The notes: a model not told the origin generated them from the letters alone. Counted from the first letter of the stretch, positions 6,826 to 14,408 are shown. The stretch is 18,664 nt of DNA from Escherichia coli (GCF_003334255.1 NZ_QOWU01000073.1), one strand, 5' to 3'. Translations and numbers: made by a program.

Positions 6826-6851
6826 AACCGCTCCGGCGGTTTTTTTATTTT
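6826..6851 (+). terminator. Intrinsic terminator-like hairpin between terL and the capsid gene
   Basis: AACCGC tccg GCGGTT stem-loop followed by TTTTTTTATTTT. Confidence 0.5.
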
Positions 6852-6863
6852 CAGGAGGCTGAT

Positions 6864-8801
6864 GTGACTCTTAAACGGGCCTGTTCCCTGCTGACGGTGA
6901 AATCCTTCAGTGAGGATGAACGGGTGATCACCGGGATTGCGTCAACGCCTTCTCCGGATCGGGATGGTGACATCCTGGAGCCGGAGGGCGCGGAGTTTGG
7001 CAGTGCGATCCCGTTTCTCTGGCAGCATGACCATTCCCGCCCGGTGGGGCAGTGTACGGTGCGCCGGGTCAGCGAAGGGCTGGAAATCACGGCAACACTG
7101 GTGAAGCCCGTACCGGATATGCCGTCGCAACTGGCTGCCCGGCTGGATGAGGTCTGGGCGGCCATTAAGACCGGGCTGGTCAGGGGGCTGTCCGTGGGCT
7201 TCCGTCCCCATGAATACACCTTTCTGGACGGAGGCGGACTGCATTTTCTGCGCTGGGAACTGATGGAGGTGTCTGCCGTCACCGTGCCCGCGAATGCGGA
7301 ATGCACCATCCGGACCATTAAATCTTACGACTGCCCGTTTTCTGCCGCGTCCGGCAACCGGAAACCGGTGGTGAAAATCGCATCTTCTGCCGGCGCTGCG
7401 GCACAGTCAACAACCGTTTTTCATAAGGAAAAGACCATAATGAATATTGGCGAACAGATTAAAAGTTTTGAAAACAAGCGTGCAGCGCTGGCAGCCTCCC
7501 TTGAGGAGGTCATGACCAAAGCCGCAGAGGAAGGGCGCACGCTGGATGTGGAGGAGGAAGAGCATTACGACAACACCGCAGCGGAAATCCGTCAGGTGGA
7601 TGCGCACCTGAAGCGCCTGCGTGAACTGGAAGCCGGTAAGGCCGCCACGGCGCAGCCGGTGAAACAGGCCGGTAACGGGAATGTGGCCGCGGTGGCTTCT
7701 GCGCCGGTGATCCGTGTGGAGCAGAAACTGGATAAGGGGATTGGCTTCGCCCGCTTTGCCAAATCGCTGGCTGCGGCTAAAGGCGTCCGATCTGAAGCCC
7801 TGGAAGTGGCCCGTCGTCAGTATCCGGATGACAGTCGTCTGCATCATGTCCTGAAATCGGCAGTGGGCGCGGGGACCACCACGGATCCGCAGTGGGCAGG
7901 CAGCCTGTCTGAATATCAGGAATACGCACAGGACTTTATTGATTACCTGCGTCCGCAGACCATTATCGGGCGATTTGGTCAGGGCGGGATCCCTGCACTT
8001 CGTCAGGTGCCGTTCAATATCCGTGTGCACGCCCAGGTGTCCGGCGGTGCTGCCGGCTGGGTGGGTGAGGGTAAGGCAAAACCCCTGACGAAGTTTGATT
8101 TTGAATCCATCACCTTCAGTCATGCGAAGGTGTCGGCCATTGCGGTACTGACGGAAGAATTGATCCGTTTTTCCAGTCCGGCTGCTGATGCACTGGTCCG
8201 TAATGCGCTGGCGGAAGCGGTGGTGGCGCGTCTGGATACAGACTTTGTGGACCCGAAAAAAGCGGCGGTGGCAGATGTCTCCCCGGCGTCCATCACCCAT
8301 GATGTGAAGGGCACGGCATCAAGCGGTAACCCGGATGCGGATGCAGAGGCGGCGTTTGGACAGTTTGTGGCAGCAAACCTGCAGCCCACTGGTGCTGTCT
8401 GGCTGATGTCCAGCACCAATGCCCTGGCGCTGTCCATGCGTAAAAATGCGCTGGGTCAGAAAGAATACCCGGACATGACCCTGCTGGGTGGCTCCTTCCA
8501 GGGGCTGCCGGTGATTGTCTCCCAGTACGTGGGTGACCAGCTGGTGCTGGTGAATGCCCCGGATATTTATCTGGCGGATGACGGCGGCGTGGCAGTGGAT
8601 ATGTCCCGCGAGGCATCACTGGAAATGCAGTCTGAGCCGACCGGCGACAGTACCACGCCGTCGCCGGTGGAGCTGGTTTCCATGTTCCAGACAGGCAGTG
8701 TGGCCATCCGTGCGGAGCGCTGGATCAACTGGCGTCGTCGCCGTACCGCGGCGGTGGCGGTGATCACCGGAGTGAACTACGGCAGTGCGTCCGGCGGCTG
8801 A
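6864..8801 (+). CDS. Prohead protease / major capsid protein in-frame fusion (HK97-type), 645 aa
   Basis: GTG start with AGGAGG 5 nt upstream. N-terminal ~170 aa carry prohead-protease motifs (ITGIASTPSPDRDGDIL, LWQHD, GLSVGF). C-terminal ~450 aa begin with a coiled-coil delta-like segment and look like an HK97-fold capsid protein. Internal AAGGA-N9-ATG at 7426-7442. Confidence 0.85.
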   Translation: MTLKRACSLLTVKSFSEDERVITGIASTPSPDRDGDILEPEGAEFGSAIPFLWQHDHSRPVGQCTVRRVSEGLEITATLVKPVPDMPSQLAARLDEVWAAIKTGLVRGLSVGFRPHEYTFLDGGGLHFLRWELMEVSAVTVPANAECTIRTIKSYDCPFSAASGNRKPVVKIASSAGAAAQSTTVFHKEKTIMNIGEQIKSFENKRAALAASLEEVMTKAAEEGRTLDVEEEEHYDNTAAEIRQVDAHLKRLRELEAGKAATAQPVKQAGNGNVAAVASAPVIRVEQKLDKGIGFARFAKSLAAAKGVRSEALEVARRQYPDDSRLHHVLKSAVGAGTTTDPQWAGSLSEYQEYAQDFIDYLRPQTIIGRFGQGGIPALRQVPFNIRVHAQVSGGAAGWVGEGKAKPLTKFDFESITFSHAKVSAIAVLTEELIRFSSPAADALVRNALAEAVVARLDTDFVDPKKAAVADVSPASITHDVKGTASSGNPDADAEAAFGQFVAANLQPTGAVWLMSSTNALALSMRKNALGQKEYPDMTLLGGSFQGLPVIVSQYVGDQLVLVNAPDIYLADDGGVAVDMSREASLEMQSEPTGDSTTPSPVELVSMFQTGSVAIRAERWINWRRRRTAAVAVITGVNYGSASGG

Positions 8802-8815
8802 GTCTGATAAGGAGG

Positions 8816-8837
8816 ACGGGAGGCGTGCGCCTCCCGT
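8816..8837 (+). other. Perfect 10-bp stem hairpin (ACGGGAGGCG tg CGCCTCCCGT) after the capsid gene
   Basis: Perfect inverted repeat with a 2-nt central spacer. No T-run follows, so not a canonical terminator. Flanked by AAGGAGG (8809-8815) and ATG 8846. Confidence 0.5.
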
Positions 8838-8845
8838 AACAGGTT

Positions 8846-9067
8846 ATGGCAAAGATCCGATATCTGCAGGGCACGCATGATGCCCGGGCCGGGGATATCC
8901 GTGATGTGGCACAGCCGTGTGCGGAGGTGCTGGTTCGCCTGGGAAAGGCGGAGTACATCACGGTGCGACGTCCGGCAGGTCAGAAAAAGAAACGTGATGC
9001 GGAGCATGGCGAATGTGGAACCTTTTACGGCGAACCCGAAAAAACCAGAAATCAGGACGTGACGTAA
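8846..9067 (+). CDS. Hypothetical small protein, 73 aa, between capsid and portal
   Basis: Intact ORF whose last 55 nt overlap the portal start in another frame. No recognised motif. Confidence 0.35.
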   Translation: MAKIRYLQGTHDARAGDIRDVAQPCAEVLVRLGKAEYITVRRPAGQKKKRDAEHGECGTFYGEPEKTRNQDVT

Positions 9068-12952: not shown

Positions 12953-12968
12953 ATTATCAGGAGGCAGA

Positions 12969-13685
12969 ATGTCTGCTTTGTATGAACGCTCACAGCTGAC
13001 GCAGGTGATGATTTCATCTGCCCCGGCGACTGCTGAAACTATGGATAAGGCGGAATATCTGCGCCTGGACTGCACCATCAAGGAAGTCCAGTTCACCGCC
13101 GGTCAGAAACAGGATATTGATGTGACCACGCTCTGCTCCACAGAGCAGGAGAACATCAACGGTCTGGGGGCGTCGTCCGAGATTTCCATGTCGGGTAATT
13201 TTTATCTGAATCAGGCCCAGAACGCCCTGCGTGATGCCTATGACAATGACACGGTGTATGCGTTTAAGGTGCAGTTTCCGTCCGGTAAGGGCTTTAAGTT
13301 CCTGGCGGAAGTGCGTCAGCACACCTGGTCATCCGGTACCAACGGCGTGGTGGCAGCAACGTTTTCACTGCGTCTGAAAGGCAAACCGGTGTCCTTTGTG
13401 GTACCGCTGGCGTTTGTGAAAAATCTGGATAAAACACTTACCGTGAATACCGGTGCGCTGCTGACAATGTCAGTCAGTGCCAACGGGGGAACGCCGCCGT
13501 ATAAATACGCCTGGAAGAAGGATGGTCAGCCGGTTGACGGGCAGACGACAGACACCTTCAGTAAGCCAGGTGCGCAGTCCGCTGATGCGGGGAAATATAC
13601 CTGCGTGGTGACCGATTCGGCAGAGAAAGCACAGAGTGTGACGTCTGTTGAATGCACCGTGACAGTGAGCGCAGCCGCCGGATAA
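12969..13685 (+). CDS. Major tail protein with C-terminal Ig-like domain
   Basis: Strong SD AGGAGG. Position between tail-completion and chaperone genes. C-terminal ~80 aa (PPYKYAWKKDGQPVDGQTTDTFSKPGAQSADAGKYTCVVTDSAEKAQ) have the Ig-like G-x-Y-x-C signature. Confidence 0.85.
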   Translation: MSALYERSQLTQVMISSAPATAETMDKAEYLRLDCTIKEVQFTAGQKQDIDVTTLCSTEQENINGLGASSEISMSGNFYLNQAQNALRDAYDNDTVYAFKVQFPSGKGFKFLAEVRQHTWSSGTNGVVAATFSLRLKGKPVSFVVPLAFVKNLDKTLTVNTGALLTMSVSANGGTPPYKYAWKKDGQPVDGQTTDTFSKPGAQSADAGKYTCVVTDSAEKAQSVTSVECTVTVSAAAG

Positions 13686-13699
13686 GGGGATGGGTCATC

Positions 13700-14074
13700 A
13701 TGAAAAAGGATCTGAAAACGCTGGCGCTGGCCAGACTGTCAGGGTTTCGTCATAAAACGGTGAAGGTGCCGGAATGGGGTAATGTCAGCGTGGTGCTGCG
13801 GGAGCCTTCGGCAGAGGCCTGGTATCTGTGGCAGGAAGTGCTCAATGGTGATGGAGAGGATGACGATACCCTGTCGGTGGTGGCGAAAACCCGCCGTAAC
13901 CTGGAAGCGGATGTGACGCTGTTCTGCGATGTCCTGTGTGATACGGATCTGCAGCGGGTGTTCACTCCGGACGACCGTGAGCAGGTGCTGGCCGTCTATG
14001 GTCCGGTACATGCCAGGTTGCTGCGTCAGGCACTGGAACTGATCGCTGATGCAGAGTCGGCCAGAAAAAAGTAG
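13700..14074 (+). CDS. G: Tail assembly chaperone (lambda G-like)
   Basis: Internal Met of track ORF 13652..14074 with GGGGA 9 nt upstream. Acidic small protein. Ends 3 nt after the slippery heptamer A_AAA_AAG. Confidence 0.8.
   Translation: MKKDLKTLALARLSGFRHKTVKVPEWGNVSVVLREPSAEAWYLWQEVLNGDGEDDDTLSVVAKTRRNLEADVTLFCDVLCDTDLQRVFTPDDREQVLAVYGPVHARLLRQALELIADAESARKK
14065..14071 (+). promoter_or_regulatory. -1 ribosomal frameshift slippery heptamer A_AAA_AAG
   Basis: Heptamer lies in the G frame 3 nt before the G stop. Same slippery sequence class as E. coli dnaX. Confidence 0.7.
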
Positions 14075-14379
14075 CCCGCCCGGAAATTCGCTTTCTGATG
14101 CGACTTGCGCTCCGTCTGGGGCGCACCTTATCCGAACTGCGGCACAGCCTGAGTGCGAGCGAGGCGATGATGTGGATGGAGTTCGACAGGGTATCCCCGC
14201 TGGGTGATGAGCGCGGGGATATCCGTAATGCACAGATCGTGAAAGCGGTTTTCGGGGCACAGGGGATGAATGTTGCACTGAAGGACGCCATGCTCTGCTG
14301 GGGCGAGGATGAGGATAAGCCGGAGGTGGATCCGTTTGCGGCGCTGGAAGACGCGCTGAGCTTTGCAGCACAGTCATGA
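14065..14379 (+). CDS. T: T extension of the G-T fusion, reached by programmed -1 frameshift; full product would span 13700..14379
   Basis: The -1 frame is open from 14071 (VARPEIRFLMRLALRL...) through track ORF 14098..14379. Shift site AAAAAAG at 14065-14071. Confidence 0.65.
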   Translation, partial: KKVARPEIRFLMRLALRLGRTLSELRHSLSASEAMMWMEFDRVSPLGDERGDIRNAQIVKAVFGAQGMNVALKDAMLCWGEDEDKPEVDPFAALEDALSFAAQS

Positions 14380-14387
14380 ATGATGAG

Positions 14388-14408
14388 AACCGCTGAGGCG
14401 GTTTTTTT
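14388..14408 (+). terminator. Intrinsic terminator-like hairpin between T and the tape measure gene
   Basis: AACCGC tgag GCGGTT followed by TTTTTTT. The stem is identical to the hairpin at 6826-6841. Confidence 0.5.

What the first reader, a model, noticed from the sequence alone, without database searches (positions are those of the whole stretch)
6826..14408. Late operon punctuated by intrinsic terminators, two with identical stems
Terminator-like hairpins with T-runs occur after the endolysin (1611-1647), after terL (6826-6851), before the major tail gene (12932-12952) and before the tape measure gene (14388-14408). The 6826 and 14388 hairpins share the exact stem AACCGC/GCGGTT with different loops, suggesting a repeated sequence module. 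This implies expression depends on antitermination and may help set stoichiometry. Coordinates here span the two identical-stem copies.
Basis: partly seen in the sequence, partly recalled or inferred. Interest (0 to 1): 0.35.

Follow-up and report, generated by a model that had tools for sequence, protein, structure and literature searches.

The report
Intrinsic terminators inside a prophage late operon
The hairpins are genuine, evolutionarily conserved Rho-independent terminators in the few non-coding gaps of a lambda-like E. coli prophage's late operon, which is a known feature of such phages, and the two "identical stems" are a generic terminator design rather than a special repeat.

Summary
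All four hairpin-plus-T-run sites exist at the stated coordinates. Under a strict definition the window holds exactly three terminators (6826, 12932, 14388), against 0.06 expected. All three are on the coding strand, in the three largest intergenic gaps of the structural gene array.

The window is a lambdoid E. coli prophage late region, about 95% identical to O157 Sakai Sp10. Relatives carry an antiterminator (Q-type) gene followed by a terminator-like hairpin upstream. No promoter-like site follows any of the three terminators.

The hairpins before the major tail gene and before the tape measure gene recur at the same positions in diverged E. coli and Klebsiella phages and in HK542. Their stems differ there by compensatory changes. 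HK542's GenBank record already annotates rho-independent terminators before its major tail gene and elsewhere in its late operon. The phage L genome paper states that intra-late-operon terminators are common and of unknown role.

The "identical stem module" reading is not supported. The two copies do share 21 of 23 bases. However, Sakai Sp10 and about 21% of close relatives carry a different stem at the tape measure site. AACCGC-N4-GCGGTTTTTTT also occurs in many bacterial phyla.

The stoichiometry idea is untested, and two of the three sites precede the most abundant virion proteins. Verdict: ordinary, a known kind, low interest.

The parts
1610..1649 (+). Strong hairpin (15-bp stem 1610-1624/1628-1642) plus a TTTTGTTTTT tail, 91 nt after the lysozyme gene. 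It has an A-run upstream, so it could act in both directions.
   Evidence: dG -21.1 kcal/mol, z -5.2. Homology to Sakai Sp10 stops at window 1612 and resumes at 2159, so the hairpin lies at a mosaic junction.
6825..6851 (+). Terminator in the terL-to-capsid gap: stem GAACCGC (6825-6831), loop TCCG, stem GCGGTTT (6836-6842), T7 run 6840-6846, then ATTTT.
   Evidence: Across 12 sequence variants in relatives, one change in the AACCGC/GCGGTT stem keeps pairing as A-U to G-U. The two middle loop bases vary (CC, GC, GT).
6853..6866 (+). Shine-Dalgarno AGGAGG (6853-6858) and GTG start (6864) of the protease/major capsid fusion gene, directly after the terminator.
12889..12916 (+). Weak hairpin GGTCAC/GGT/GTGACC-like plus a T5CT7 run overlapping the stop codon of the tail completion gene. 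It may be an auxiliary upstream terminator. It is variable or deleted in relatives.
   Evidence: (dG -6.3, z -1.7).
12932..12952 (+). Terminator before the major tail gene: stem CCCGC (12932-12936), loop CGCGT, stem GCGGG (12942-12946), T6 run 12947-12952.
   Evidence: A hairpin occupies the same position in 8 lineages: 89% of cells paired, the CCGC/GCGG core invariant, and the outer pair switching between A-U and C-G. HK542's GenBank record annotates a rho-independent terminator at this position.
12959..12971 (+). Shine-Dalgarno AGGAGG (12959-12964) and ATG (12969) of the major tail gene. The stretch TTTTTTATT(A/T)TCAGGAGGC(A/T)GA is nearly the same as the one after the 6826 terminator.
14386..14408 (+). 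Terminator before the tape measure gene: stem AACCGC (14388-14393), loop TGAG, stem GCGGTT (14398-14403), extendable by A-U and G-U pairs, T7 run 14402-14408.
   Evidence: A hairpin occupies the same position in 13 lineages: 97.8% of cells paired, 5 of 7 pairs with compensatory changes, and slid controls at most 54% paired.
14415..14429 (+). Weaker ribosome-binding region (GGAGAAAGGTGA) and ATG (14427) of the tape measure gene.

Best explanation
The sites are ordinary Rho-independent transcription terminators. Selection keeps them as RNA hairpins in the only sizeable non-coding gaps of the late operon of a lambdoid, Q-antiterminated E. coli prophage.

Proposed mechanism: during lytic growth, RNA polymerase that started at the late promoter and was modified by the phage Q-type antiterminator ignores these terminators. 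It transcribes lysis, packaging, head and tail genes as one long message. Polymerase that was not modified stops at the next terminator. Such polymerase could come from spurious starts inside the prophage, or from read-in from accessory genes, insertion sequences or host promoters.

The terminators would therefore make structural-gene expression strictly dependent on Q and insulate the silent prophage. [quoted passage not shown]

What is shown and what is inferred:
- Shown: the structures, their non-random number and placement, and their conservation with compensatory changes.
- Inferred: actual termination, read-through by Q-modified polymerase, and the insulating role.
For: - Canonical anatomy and stability at all sites.
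- Exactly three strict terminators, all on the coding strand and all in intergenic gaps, against 0.06 expected.
- No sigma-70-like promoter on the + strand downstream of position 3189. The capsid, tail tube and tape measure genes must therefore be reached by read-through.
- The window is a lambdoid prophage late region. In the close relative L001 and in Sakai Sp10, an antiterminator gene followed by a terminator-like hairpin lies upstream of the lysis genes.
- Hairpin plus T-run persists at the same positions in diverged E. coli and Klebsiella phages and in HK542, with different stems and compensatory changes.
- HK542's GenBank record annotates rho-independent terminators before its major tail gene and elsewhere in its late operon.
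- PMC8022706 states that such intra-operon terminators are common in lambdoid late operons. It proposes, among other roles, stopping transcription that started without antitermination.
- PMC7547250 summarises Q antitermination of the late transcript in the same group of prophages.
Against: - No transcript data were available. The Sakai Term-seq data exist only in GEO.
- Q and the late promoter are not in the window; they are inferred from relatives.
- The insulating role is one of two roles the literature treats as open.
- The terL site could be compared only among close relatives (at least 90% identity). There it shows no double compensatory change.
Confidence: 0.6

Rival explanations
1. Partial terminators (attenuators). 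Even Q-modified polymerase terminates at some frequency at each site, stepping mRNA levels down along the operon to help set protein stoichiometry. The 3' hairpins left behind might also stabilise the upstream message segments.
For: - PMC8022706 lists this as a possible role.
- The 14388 site precedes low-copy proteins (tape measure and tail tip).
- In relatives with HK97-type heads, hairpins follow the major capsid gene, and in HK542 also the major tail gene.
- A stable hairpin without a T-run follows the capsid gene here (8816-8837).
Against: - The 6826 and 12932 sites lie immediately upstream of the two most abundant virion proteins (capsid and tail tube). Attenuation there would lower them relative to terminase and connector proteins.
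- From established knowledge of lambda, Q-modified polymerase is highly terminator-resistant.
- No expression data were available.
Confidence: 0.2
2. Boundary elements of mosaic exchange. The terminators are the ends or scars of inserted accessory genes ("morons", each a promoter, a gene and a terminator). Alternatively they are short shared sequences at which modules recombine. Their presence would then reflect genome history rather than a role in late transcription.
For: - The gap between the tail chaperone gene T and the tape measure gene is the classical HK97 gene 15 moron position (PMC3594210).
- Klebsiella relatives carry an extra ORF there, upstream of the hairpin.
- Sequence upstream of the tape measure hairpin is unrelated between lineages, while the hairpin and the gene start are kept.
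- Homology to Sp10 breaks exactly at the 1610 hairpin.
- A 22-mer, ACCGCTCCGGCGGTTTTTTTAT, is shared between the terL site here and a hairpin about 1.5 kb upstream of the major tail gene in Klebsiella phage loci. Its position after the capsid gene there is inferred, not checked.
Against: - The window has no ORF or promoter between the flanking genes and the hairpins.
- No accessory gene was seen at the terL or major tail positions in any relative.
- Stems change by compensatory substitutions. This indicates selection on RNA pairing, not on DNA identity.
- This reading does not exclude the best explanation.
Confidence: 0.15
3. The hairpins are the 3' ends of Hfq-binding small RNAs made in lysogens. 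The segment ending at 14408 would be an IsrK-like small RNA.
For: - A weak Rfam match to isrK at 14341-14408 (27.1 bits, E 0.023).
- EHEC prophages encode many small RNAs that end in intrinsic terminators.
Against: - The score is far below the family gathering threshold of 50 bits, and the best-matching part of the alignment is the terminator stem-loop and U-run.
- No promoter-like site lies upstream.
- The orphan Hfq-binding sites listed for Sakai include none among the Sp10 structural genes (1,948,000-1,961,000).
Confidence: 0.04
4. The two identical stems are copies of one mobile or duplicated sequence module, spread by gene conversion or transposition between the terL and tape measure sites.
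For: - 21 of 23 bases are identical, with 0 expected by chance in shuffles.
- In a sample of viral contigs, the 23-mer occurs almost only at these two positions.
- The differences between the two alleles at the tape measure site are clustered in a patch of about 45 nt.
Against: - The flanks outside the 23-mer are unrelated.
- A hairpin halves the number of free positions. The T-run and the closing C-G pair are functional constraints.
- The stem identity is absent in Sakai Sp10 and in about 21% of relatives.
- ACCGC stems occur at all three positions in relatives.
- The same motif is found in at least 120 genome stretches from many phyla, most often with a UUCG loop.
- The third terminator in the window differs only in one outer base pair and in loop length.
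Confidence: 0.08

Closest known systems
Rho-independent terminators annotated inside the late operon of HK97/HK022-like coliphage HK542 (GenBank NC_019769)
   Same: HK542 has a homologous tail module: its major tail protein is 49% identical over the N-terminal 140 residues. It has a hairpin plus T-run between the tail terminator gene and the major tail gene (AGACCGC-TCTG-GCGGTCT-T7) and another before the tape measure gene. The first is annotated as a terminator; the second I found in the sequence.
   Different: The head module has a different gene order, so the terL-to-capsid site has no counterpart there. HK542 has additional terminators after the portal, capsid and major tail genes.
Intra-late-operon terminators of P22-like phage L (PMC8022706)
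   Same: Predicted intrinsic terminators inside a single-promoter, antiterminated late operon. [quoted passage not shown] They propose either partial termination or stopping transcription that was not antiterminated.
   Different: A different virion module type (a podovirus), with no sequence relationship to the sites here.
Lambda-type late control: pR', tR' and Q antitermination (also StxS in Stx phages, PMC7547250)
   Same: The same regulatory logic: a constitutive late promoter, a nearby terminator, and Q-modified polymerase that reads through terminators. Relatives of the window carry an antiterminator gene followed by a terminator-like hairpin.
   Different: tR' is the regulatory switch next to the promoter. 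The sites here lie 10-20 kb downstream, between structural genes, and are not known switches.
HK97 gene 15 moron (PMC3594210)
   Same: It occupies the same gap between the tail assembly chaperone and tape measure genes. Morons carry their own terminator. Klebsiella relatives have an extra ORF at this position.
   Different: The window has no ORF or promoter there, only the terminator.

Membership tests
Rho-independent (intrinsic) terminator | G+C-rich stem-loop of about 5-12 bp with a short loop | tested here: met
   Stems of 5-15 bp with dG between -9.9 and -21.1 kcal/mol. Under the strict criterion three sites are found.
Rho-independent (intrinsic) terminator | A U-rich tract immediately 3' of the stem | tested here: met
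   T7 at 6840, T6 at 12947, T7 at 14402, and TTTTGTTTTT at 1639.
Rho-independent (intrinsic) terminator | Lies on the transcribed strand, downstream of a stop codon, in untranslated sequence | tested here: met
   All sites lie in + strand intergenic gaps of 47-66 nt, or 91 nt after the lysozyme gene.
Rho-independent (intrinsic) terminator | The hairpin is kept in evolution through compensatory changes | tested here: met
   Tape measure position: 97.8% of cells paired and 5 of 7 pairs compensatory. Major tail position: 89% paired with one outer pair switching A-U to C-G. terL position: only one-sided A-U to G-U change.
Rho-independent (intrinsic) terminator | Transcript 3' ends map to the U-tract | not testable with these tools
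   Term-seq data for Sakai exist only as a GEO deposit. The homologous Sakai coordinates are given in the next steps.
Q-antiterminated lambdoid late operon | An antiterminator gene followed by a late promoter and a promoter-proximal terminator, upstream of the lysis genes | tested here: inconclusive
   Not within the window. It is present in the close relative L001 and in Sakai Sp10: an antiterminator gene followed by a terminator-like hairpin.
Q-antiterminated lambdoid late operon | A one-strand array of lysis, packaging, head and tail genes with no internal promoters | tested here: met
   Gene order. No + strand promoter-like site lies after position 3189 (this is only a consensus scan).
Moron (promoter + accessory gene + terminator) | Its own promoter and an extra ORF upstream of the terminator | tested here: not met
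   No ORF or promoter lies between the flanking genes and the hairpins in the window. An extra ORF is present at the tape measure position in Klebsiella relatives.
IsrK Hfq-binding sRNA (Rfam RF01394) | Score at or above the family gathering threshold | tested here: not met
   27.1 bits against a threshold of 50; the best-matching part of the alignment is the terminator stem-loop and U-run.
Dispersed repeated sequence module | Several copies sharing sequence beyond what function constrains, and conserved as a set | tested here: not met
   Only two copies, with unrelated flanks. The identity is lost in Sakai Sp10 and in about 21% of relatives. The motif is generic across phyla.

The most novel reading that the evidence does not exclude
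The terminator-plus-ribosome-binding-site junctions (hairpin, T6-7, AT-rich spacer, GGAG, start codon) would be portable cassettes. They would be copied between gene boundaries, and between phages of different hosts, by short-homology recombination. They would thus serve as the physical linkers at which late-operon modules and accessory genes are exchanged. On this reading, the near-identity of the 6826 and 14388 hairpins would be traces of such exchange rather than convergence. So would the shared TTTTTTATT(A/T)TCAGGAGG stretch after 6826 and 12932, and the 22-mer shared with Klebsiella phages.
Probability: 0.08. Interest if true: 0.4.

Novelty: already known. Interest (0 to 1): 0.13.

Why it matters
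There is little new here. Intrinsic terminators inside lambdoid late operons are already annotated in GenBank records (HK542) and discussed in the literature, although their role is still called unknown (PMC8022706).

The modest value of this case is comparative. The hairpins at the major tail and tape measure positions are kept by compensatory change across E. coli and Klebsiella phages and HK542. That argues they are selected rather than incidental.

The homologous sites in the well-studied Sakai Sp10 prophage could be read directly from existing Term-seq data. That would help decide between two roles: insulation against transcription that was not antiterminated, and attenuation of the late transcript.

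Tried and rejected
- **Rfam scan of the whole window at E <= 1**. It gave only a sub-threshold isrK match covering the 14388 terminator and a spurious snoRNA match. I rejected both as evidence for an RNA gene.
- **Small-RNA reading.** I checked the table of orphan Hfq-binding sites for Sakai (Tree 2014) against Sp10 coordinates. None lies at the hairpins. The nearby small RNA hnrS maps elsewhere in the window.
- **Sakai Sp15 and Sp4**. Both carry a different, lambda-type or rearranged, structural module, so they were not informative.
- **Distant relatives of the protease/capsid fusion gene**. Phage records have nothing between 90% and 39% identity. The terL site could therefore be assessed only among close relatives.
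- **Extra copies of GCGGTTTTT at 4416 and 6783**. They have no significant hairpin (z +0.7 and -0.6), so they are not terminators.
- **The built-in terminator scan.** It is too permissive for a significance test (23 found against 17.9 expected), and it misses 14388. I replaced it with a strict scan of my own.
- **Term-seq evidence.** The paper holds no site list for structural genes; the data are only in GEO.
- **Tool availability.** I repeated them where needed.

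
Full report
**What the window is.** The 18.7-kb window is the late region of a lambdoid E. coli prophage.
- Bases 6000-15000 match Stx1a/Stx2c-converting phages and other E. coli phages at 93-97% identity.
- The whole window matches prophages in 5,010 of 5,426 complete E. coli genomes.
- In the close relative L001 the annotated order is: holin, lysozyme, small ORFs, spanin, HNH endonuclease, small and large terminase, a 645-aa protease/major capsid fusion, a small ORF, portal, four head-tail joining genes, major tail subunit, chaperones G and T, tape measure, and tail tip genes.
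- O157 Sakai prophage Sp10 carries the same module at about 94-95% identity.
- In L001 and in Sp10, an antiterminator (Q-type) gene followed by a terminator-like hairpin lies upstream of the lysis genes. That region is outside the window.

**Checking the observation.**
- Folding gives -21.1 kcal/mol for 1610-1642 (z -5.2), -10.9 for 6825-6842 (z -3.1), -9.9 for 12932-12946 (z -2.4) and -10.8 for 14386-14406 (z -2.8).
- The built-in loose scan is not enriched overall (23 sites against 17.9 in shuffles). It misses 14388, apparently because extending the stem with wobble pairs uses up the T-run.
- I therefore used a strict definition: a perfect stem of at least 5 bp with at least 3 G-C pairs, abutting at least 6 consecutive T.
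- The window then contains exactly three sites, all on the + strand: 6826, 12932 and 14388. The expectation from 300 second-order Markov simulations is 0.06 +/- 0.28.
- These three sites occupy the three largest intergenic gaps of the packaging and structural array (63, 66 and 47 nt). Almost all other gene junctions overlap or are under 25 nt.
- The remaining 44-nt gap, after the capsid gene, holds a stable 9-bp G+C-rich hairpin with no T-run (8816-8837).
- No sigma-70-like promoter site is found on the + strand after position 3189.

**The identical stems.**
- AACCGC-N(3-10)-GCGGTT occurs exactly twice in the window, with none expected, and twice in the 30-kb relative L001.
- The identity extends to GAACCGCT..GGCGGTTTTTTTA, 21 of 23 bases. 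The flanks beyond that are unrelated.
- The third terminator (12932) has the same CCGC/GCGG core. It differs only in the next outer pair (C-G instead of A-U) and in loop length.
- The sequence after the 6826 and 12932 T-runs is also nearly the same: TTTTTTATT(T/A)TCAGGAGGC(T/A)GA. It leads into the start codons of the capsid and tail tube genes.

**Is the hairpin conserved, and is the stem identity conserved?** I collected 80 close relatives through the major tail protein and 80 Klebsiella-type relatives. I added three annotated phages whose major tail proteins are 73%, 64% and 49% identical.
- terL site: 12 sequence variants. One A-to-G change in the AACCGC/GCGGTT stem keeps pairing as G-U. 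The two middle loop bases vary (CC, GC, GT).
- Tape measure site: 58 of 73 E. coli-type loci have the window's allele. The other 15 have AAAACCTGC-TGTG-GCAGGTTTT, in which two pairs are changed on both sides and the T-run is kept.
- Sakai Sp10 has AACCGC at the terL site and AACCTGC/GCAGGTT at the tape measure site. In the reference EHEC strain the two stems are therefore not identical.
- Across 13 distinct lineages, the tape measure start codon is preceded by a hairpin plus T-run. The sequence further upstream is unrelated between lineages. 97.8% of cells pair, 5 of 7 pairs show compensatory changes, and slid controls pair at 54% or less.
- Across 8 lineages, the major tail gene position pairs at 89%. 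It has an invariant CCGC/GCGG core and one outer pair alternating between A-U and C-G.
- The hairpins themselves are therefore under selection as pairing structures. The identity between the two sites is not.

**Is AACCGC/GCGGTT special?** No.
- Within this phage group, ACCGC/GCGGT stems appear at all three positions in one lineage or another. HK542 has AGACCGC-TCTG-GCGGTCT before its major tail gene. Klebsiella phages have GACCGCC-GCT-GGCGGT there and AACCGC-TTAG-GCGGTT before the tape measure gene. Phage vB_EcoS-611R1 has AACCGC-TTCG-GCGGTT before the tape measure gene.
The hits come from Firmicutes, Bacteroidota, many Proteobacteria, Patescibacteria and others. UUCG is the commonest loop, and 70 of 156 matches have at least five A directly upstream, which suggests a two-directional design.
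It is not a dispersed repeat.
- A crude estimate from about 55 clusters of terminator-like sites in the fetched loci puts the chance that two given terminators share a 6-bp stem near 0.7%. That gives a few percent for at least one identical pair among the window's four (my arithmetic). The estimate is partly circular, because the clusters include the window's own sites.
- Convergence on a favoured design is therefore sufficient: A/T-flanked CCGC/GCGG, a closing C-G pair and a stable tetraloop. Local gene conversion cannot be excluded.

**What is already known.**
- The HK542 GenBank record annotates rho-independent terminators inside the late operon: after the portal, capsid and major tail genes, before the major tail gene, and further downstream. 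HK542 also has an unannotated hairpin plus T-run before its tape measure gene.
[quoted passage not shown] It offers partial termination, or stopping spurious transcription that began without antitermination (PMC8022706).
- The gap between the chaperone and tape measure genes is where the first described moron, HK97 gene 15, sits (PMC3594210). Klebsiella relatives carry an extra ORF there, upstream of the hairpin.
- Q antitermination of the late transcript in Stx prophages is summarised in PMC7547250.

**Most likely mechanism.** These are functional intrinsic terminators that Q-modified polymerase reads through. Their selected effect would be to stop polymerase that was not modified at the late promoter. 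Structural genes would then stay silent in the lysogen and become strictly Q-dependent.
- Shown: the structures, their non-random number and placement, the lack of downstream promoter-like sites, and conservation with covariation.
- Inferred: termination itself, read-through, and the insulating role.
- The attenuation-for-stoichiometry idea fits the tape measure site. It does not fit the other two, which immediately precede the two most abundant virion proteins.
- Those two junctions combine a U-rich leader with a perfect AGGAGG. That looks like a strong translation start placed directly after the terminator in a compact genome.
- The moron-boundary reading explains part of the history of the tape measure site and of the 1610 site. 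Homology to Sp10 breaks at window 1612. This reading is compatible with the main explanation.
- The small-RNA reading has no support. The isrK match is 27 bits against a threshold of 50, and the best-matching part of the alignment is the terminator stem-loop and U-run. No upstream promoter was found. No orphan Hfq-binding site is listed among the Sp10 structural genes.

**Verdict.** It is partly unsupported: the identical stems are not a repeated module, and the stoichiometry idea is untested. The feature is of a known kind and of low interest. The one useful follow-up is to read existing Sakai Term-seq data at the homologous Sp10 coordinates.

Noticed in passing
window 2900-3065, minus strand: This stretch is 97% identical to the Sakai Sp10 region holding the Hfq-binding peak of EcOnc11. 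EcOnc11 is a copy of the multicopy prophage small RNA HnrS, which represses hha (bioRxiv 10.1101/2025.11.27.690950). It lies between the spanin gene and the HNH endonuclease gene, antisense to the late operon. The window therefore probably carries an hnrS copy.
   Followed up: partly
window 9013-11435: The portal gene is split into two ORFs (9013-10377 and 10374-11435), exactly as in Sakai Sp10 (ECs_1974 and ECs_1975). In the relative L001 it is a single 807-aa gene. Window 10538-10969 also matches several offset places in Sp10, and the second ORF is 162 nt longer there. That suggests a difference in tandem-repeat copy number.
   Followed up: partly
window 8816-8837: A stable 9-bp G+C-rich hairpin (ACGGGAGGC-GUGC-GCCUCCCGU; -18.9 kcal/mol for the centroid fold of 8796-8850, which contains only this hairpin) lies in the 44-nt gap right after the capsid gene. 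It has no T-run, so it is not an intrinsic terminator. It might stabilise the 3' end of the capsid message.
   Followed up: no
window 4385-4510: Several GTTAAC-containing repeats (ATGTTAACTGGC and related) lie in the non-coding region upstream of the small terminase gene and after the HNH endonuclease gene. They may be the cos site or terminase-binding sites.
   Followed up: no
window 1610-2160: Homology to Sakai Sp10 stops at 1612, at the start of the post-lysozyme hairpin, and resumes at 2159 in the spanin gene. Sp10 has an antirepressor gene in between, whereas the window has small ORFs. This is a variable slot bounded by a terminator.
   Followed up: partly
window 6783-6793 and 4416-4424: Two further copies of GCGGTTTTT (GCGGTTTTTTT at 6783, inside the last codons of terL) lack a convincing 5' arm (z -0.6 and +0.7). 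The 9-mer occurs 4 times against 0.13 expected.
   Followed up: partly
window 14341-14408: A sub-threshold Rfam match to the Salmonella Gifsy-1 small RNA IsrK (27.1 bits, threshold 50, E 0.023). The best-matching part of the alignment is the terminator stem-loop and U-run.
   Followed up: partly
window 3349-3376, minus strand: The best promoter-like site in the window (TTCACA, 16-nt spacer, TATAAT; 11 of 12 matches) points against the late operon, in the accessory region between the spanin and HNH genes.
   Followed up: no
L082 10503-10787 (Klebsiella phage ST13-OXA48phi12.2): An extra 94-aa hypothetical ORF sits between the tail chaperone genes and the tape measure gene, upstream of the conserved hairpin. 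This is the same slot as the HK97 gene 15 moron.
   Followed up: no
L085, Sakai Sp15 record 2,902,714-2,902,774 (outside the window): The Hfq-bound small RNA EcOnc22 (with copies EcOnc23 and EcOnc24) lies antisense in the gap between a tail assembly gene and the host-specificity gene. The corresponding gap in L001 (25603-25946) lies just beyond the window's end.
   Followed up: no
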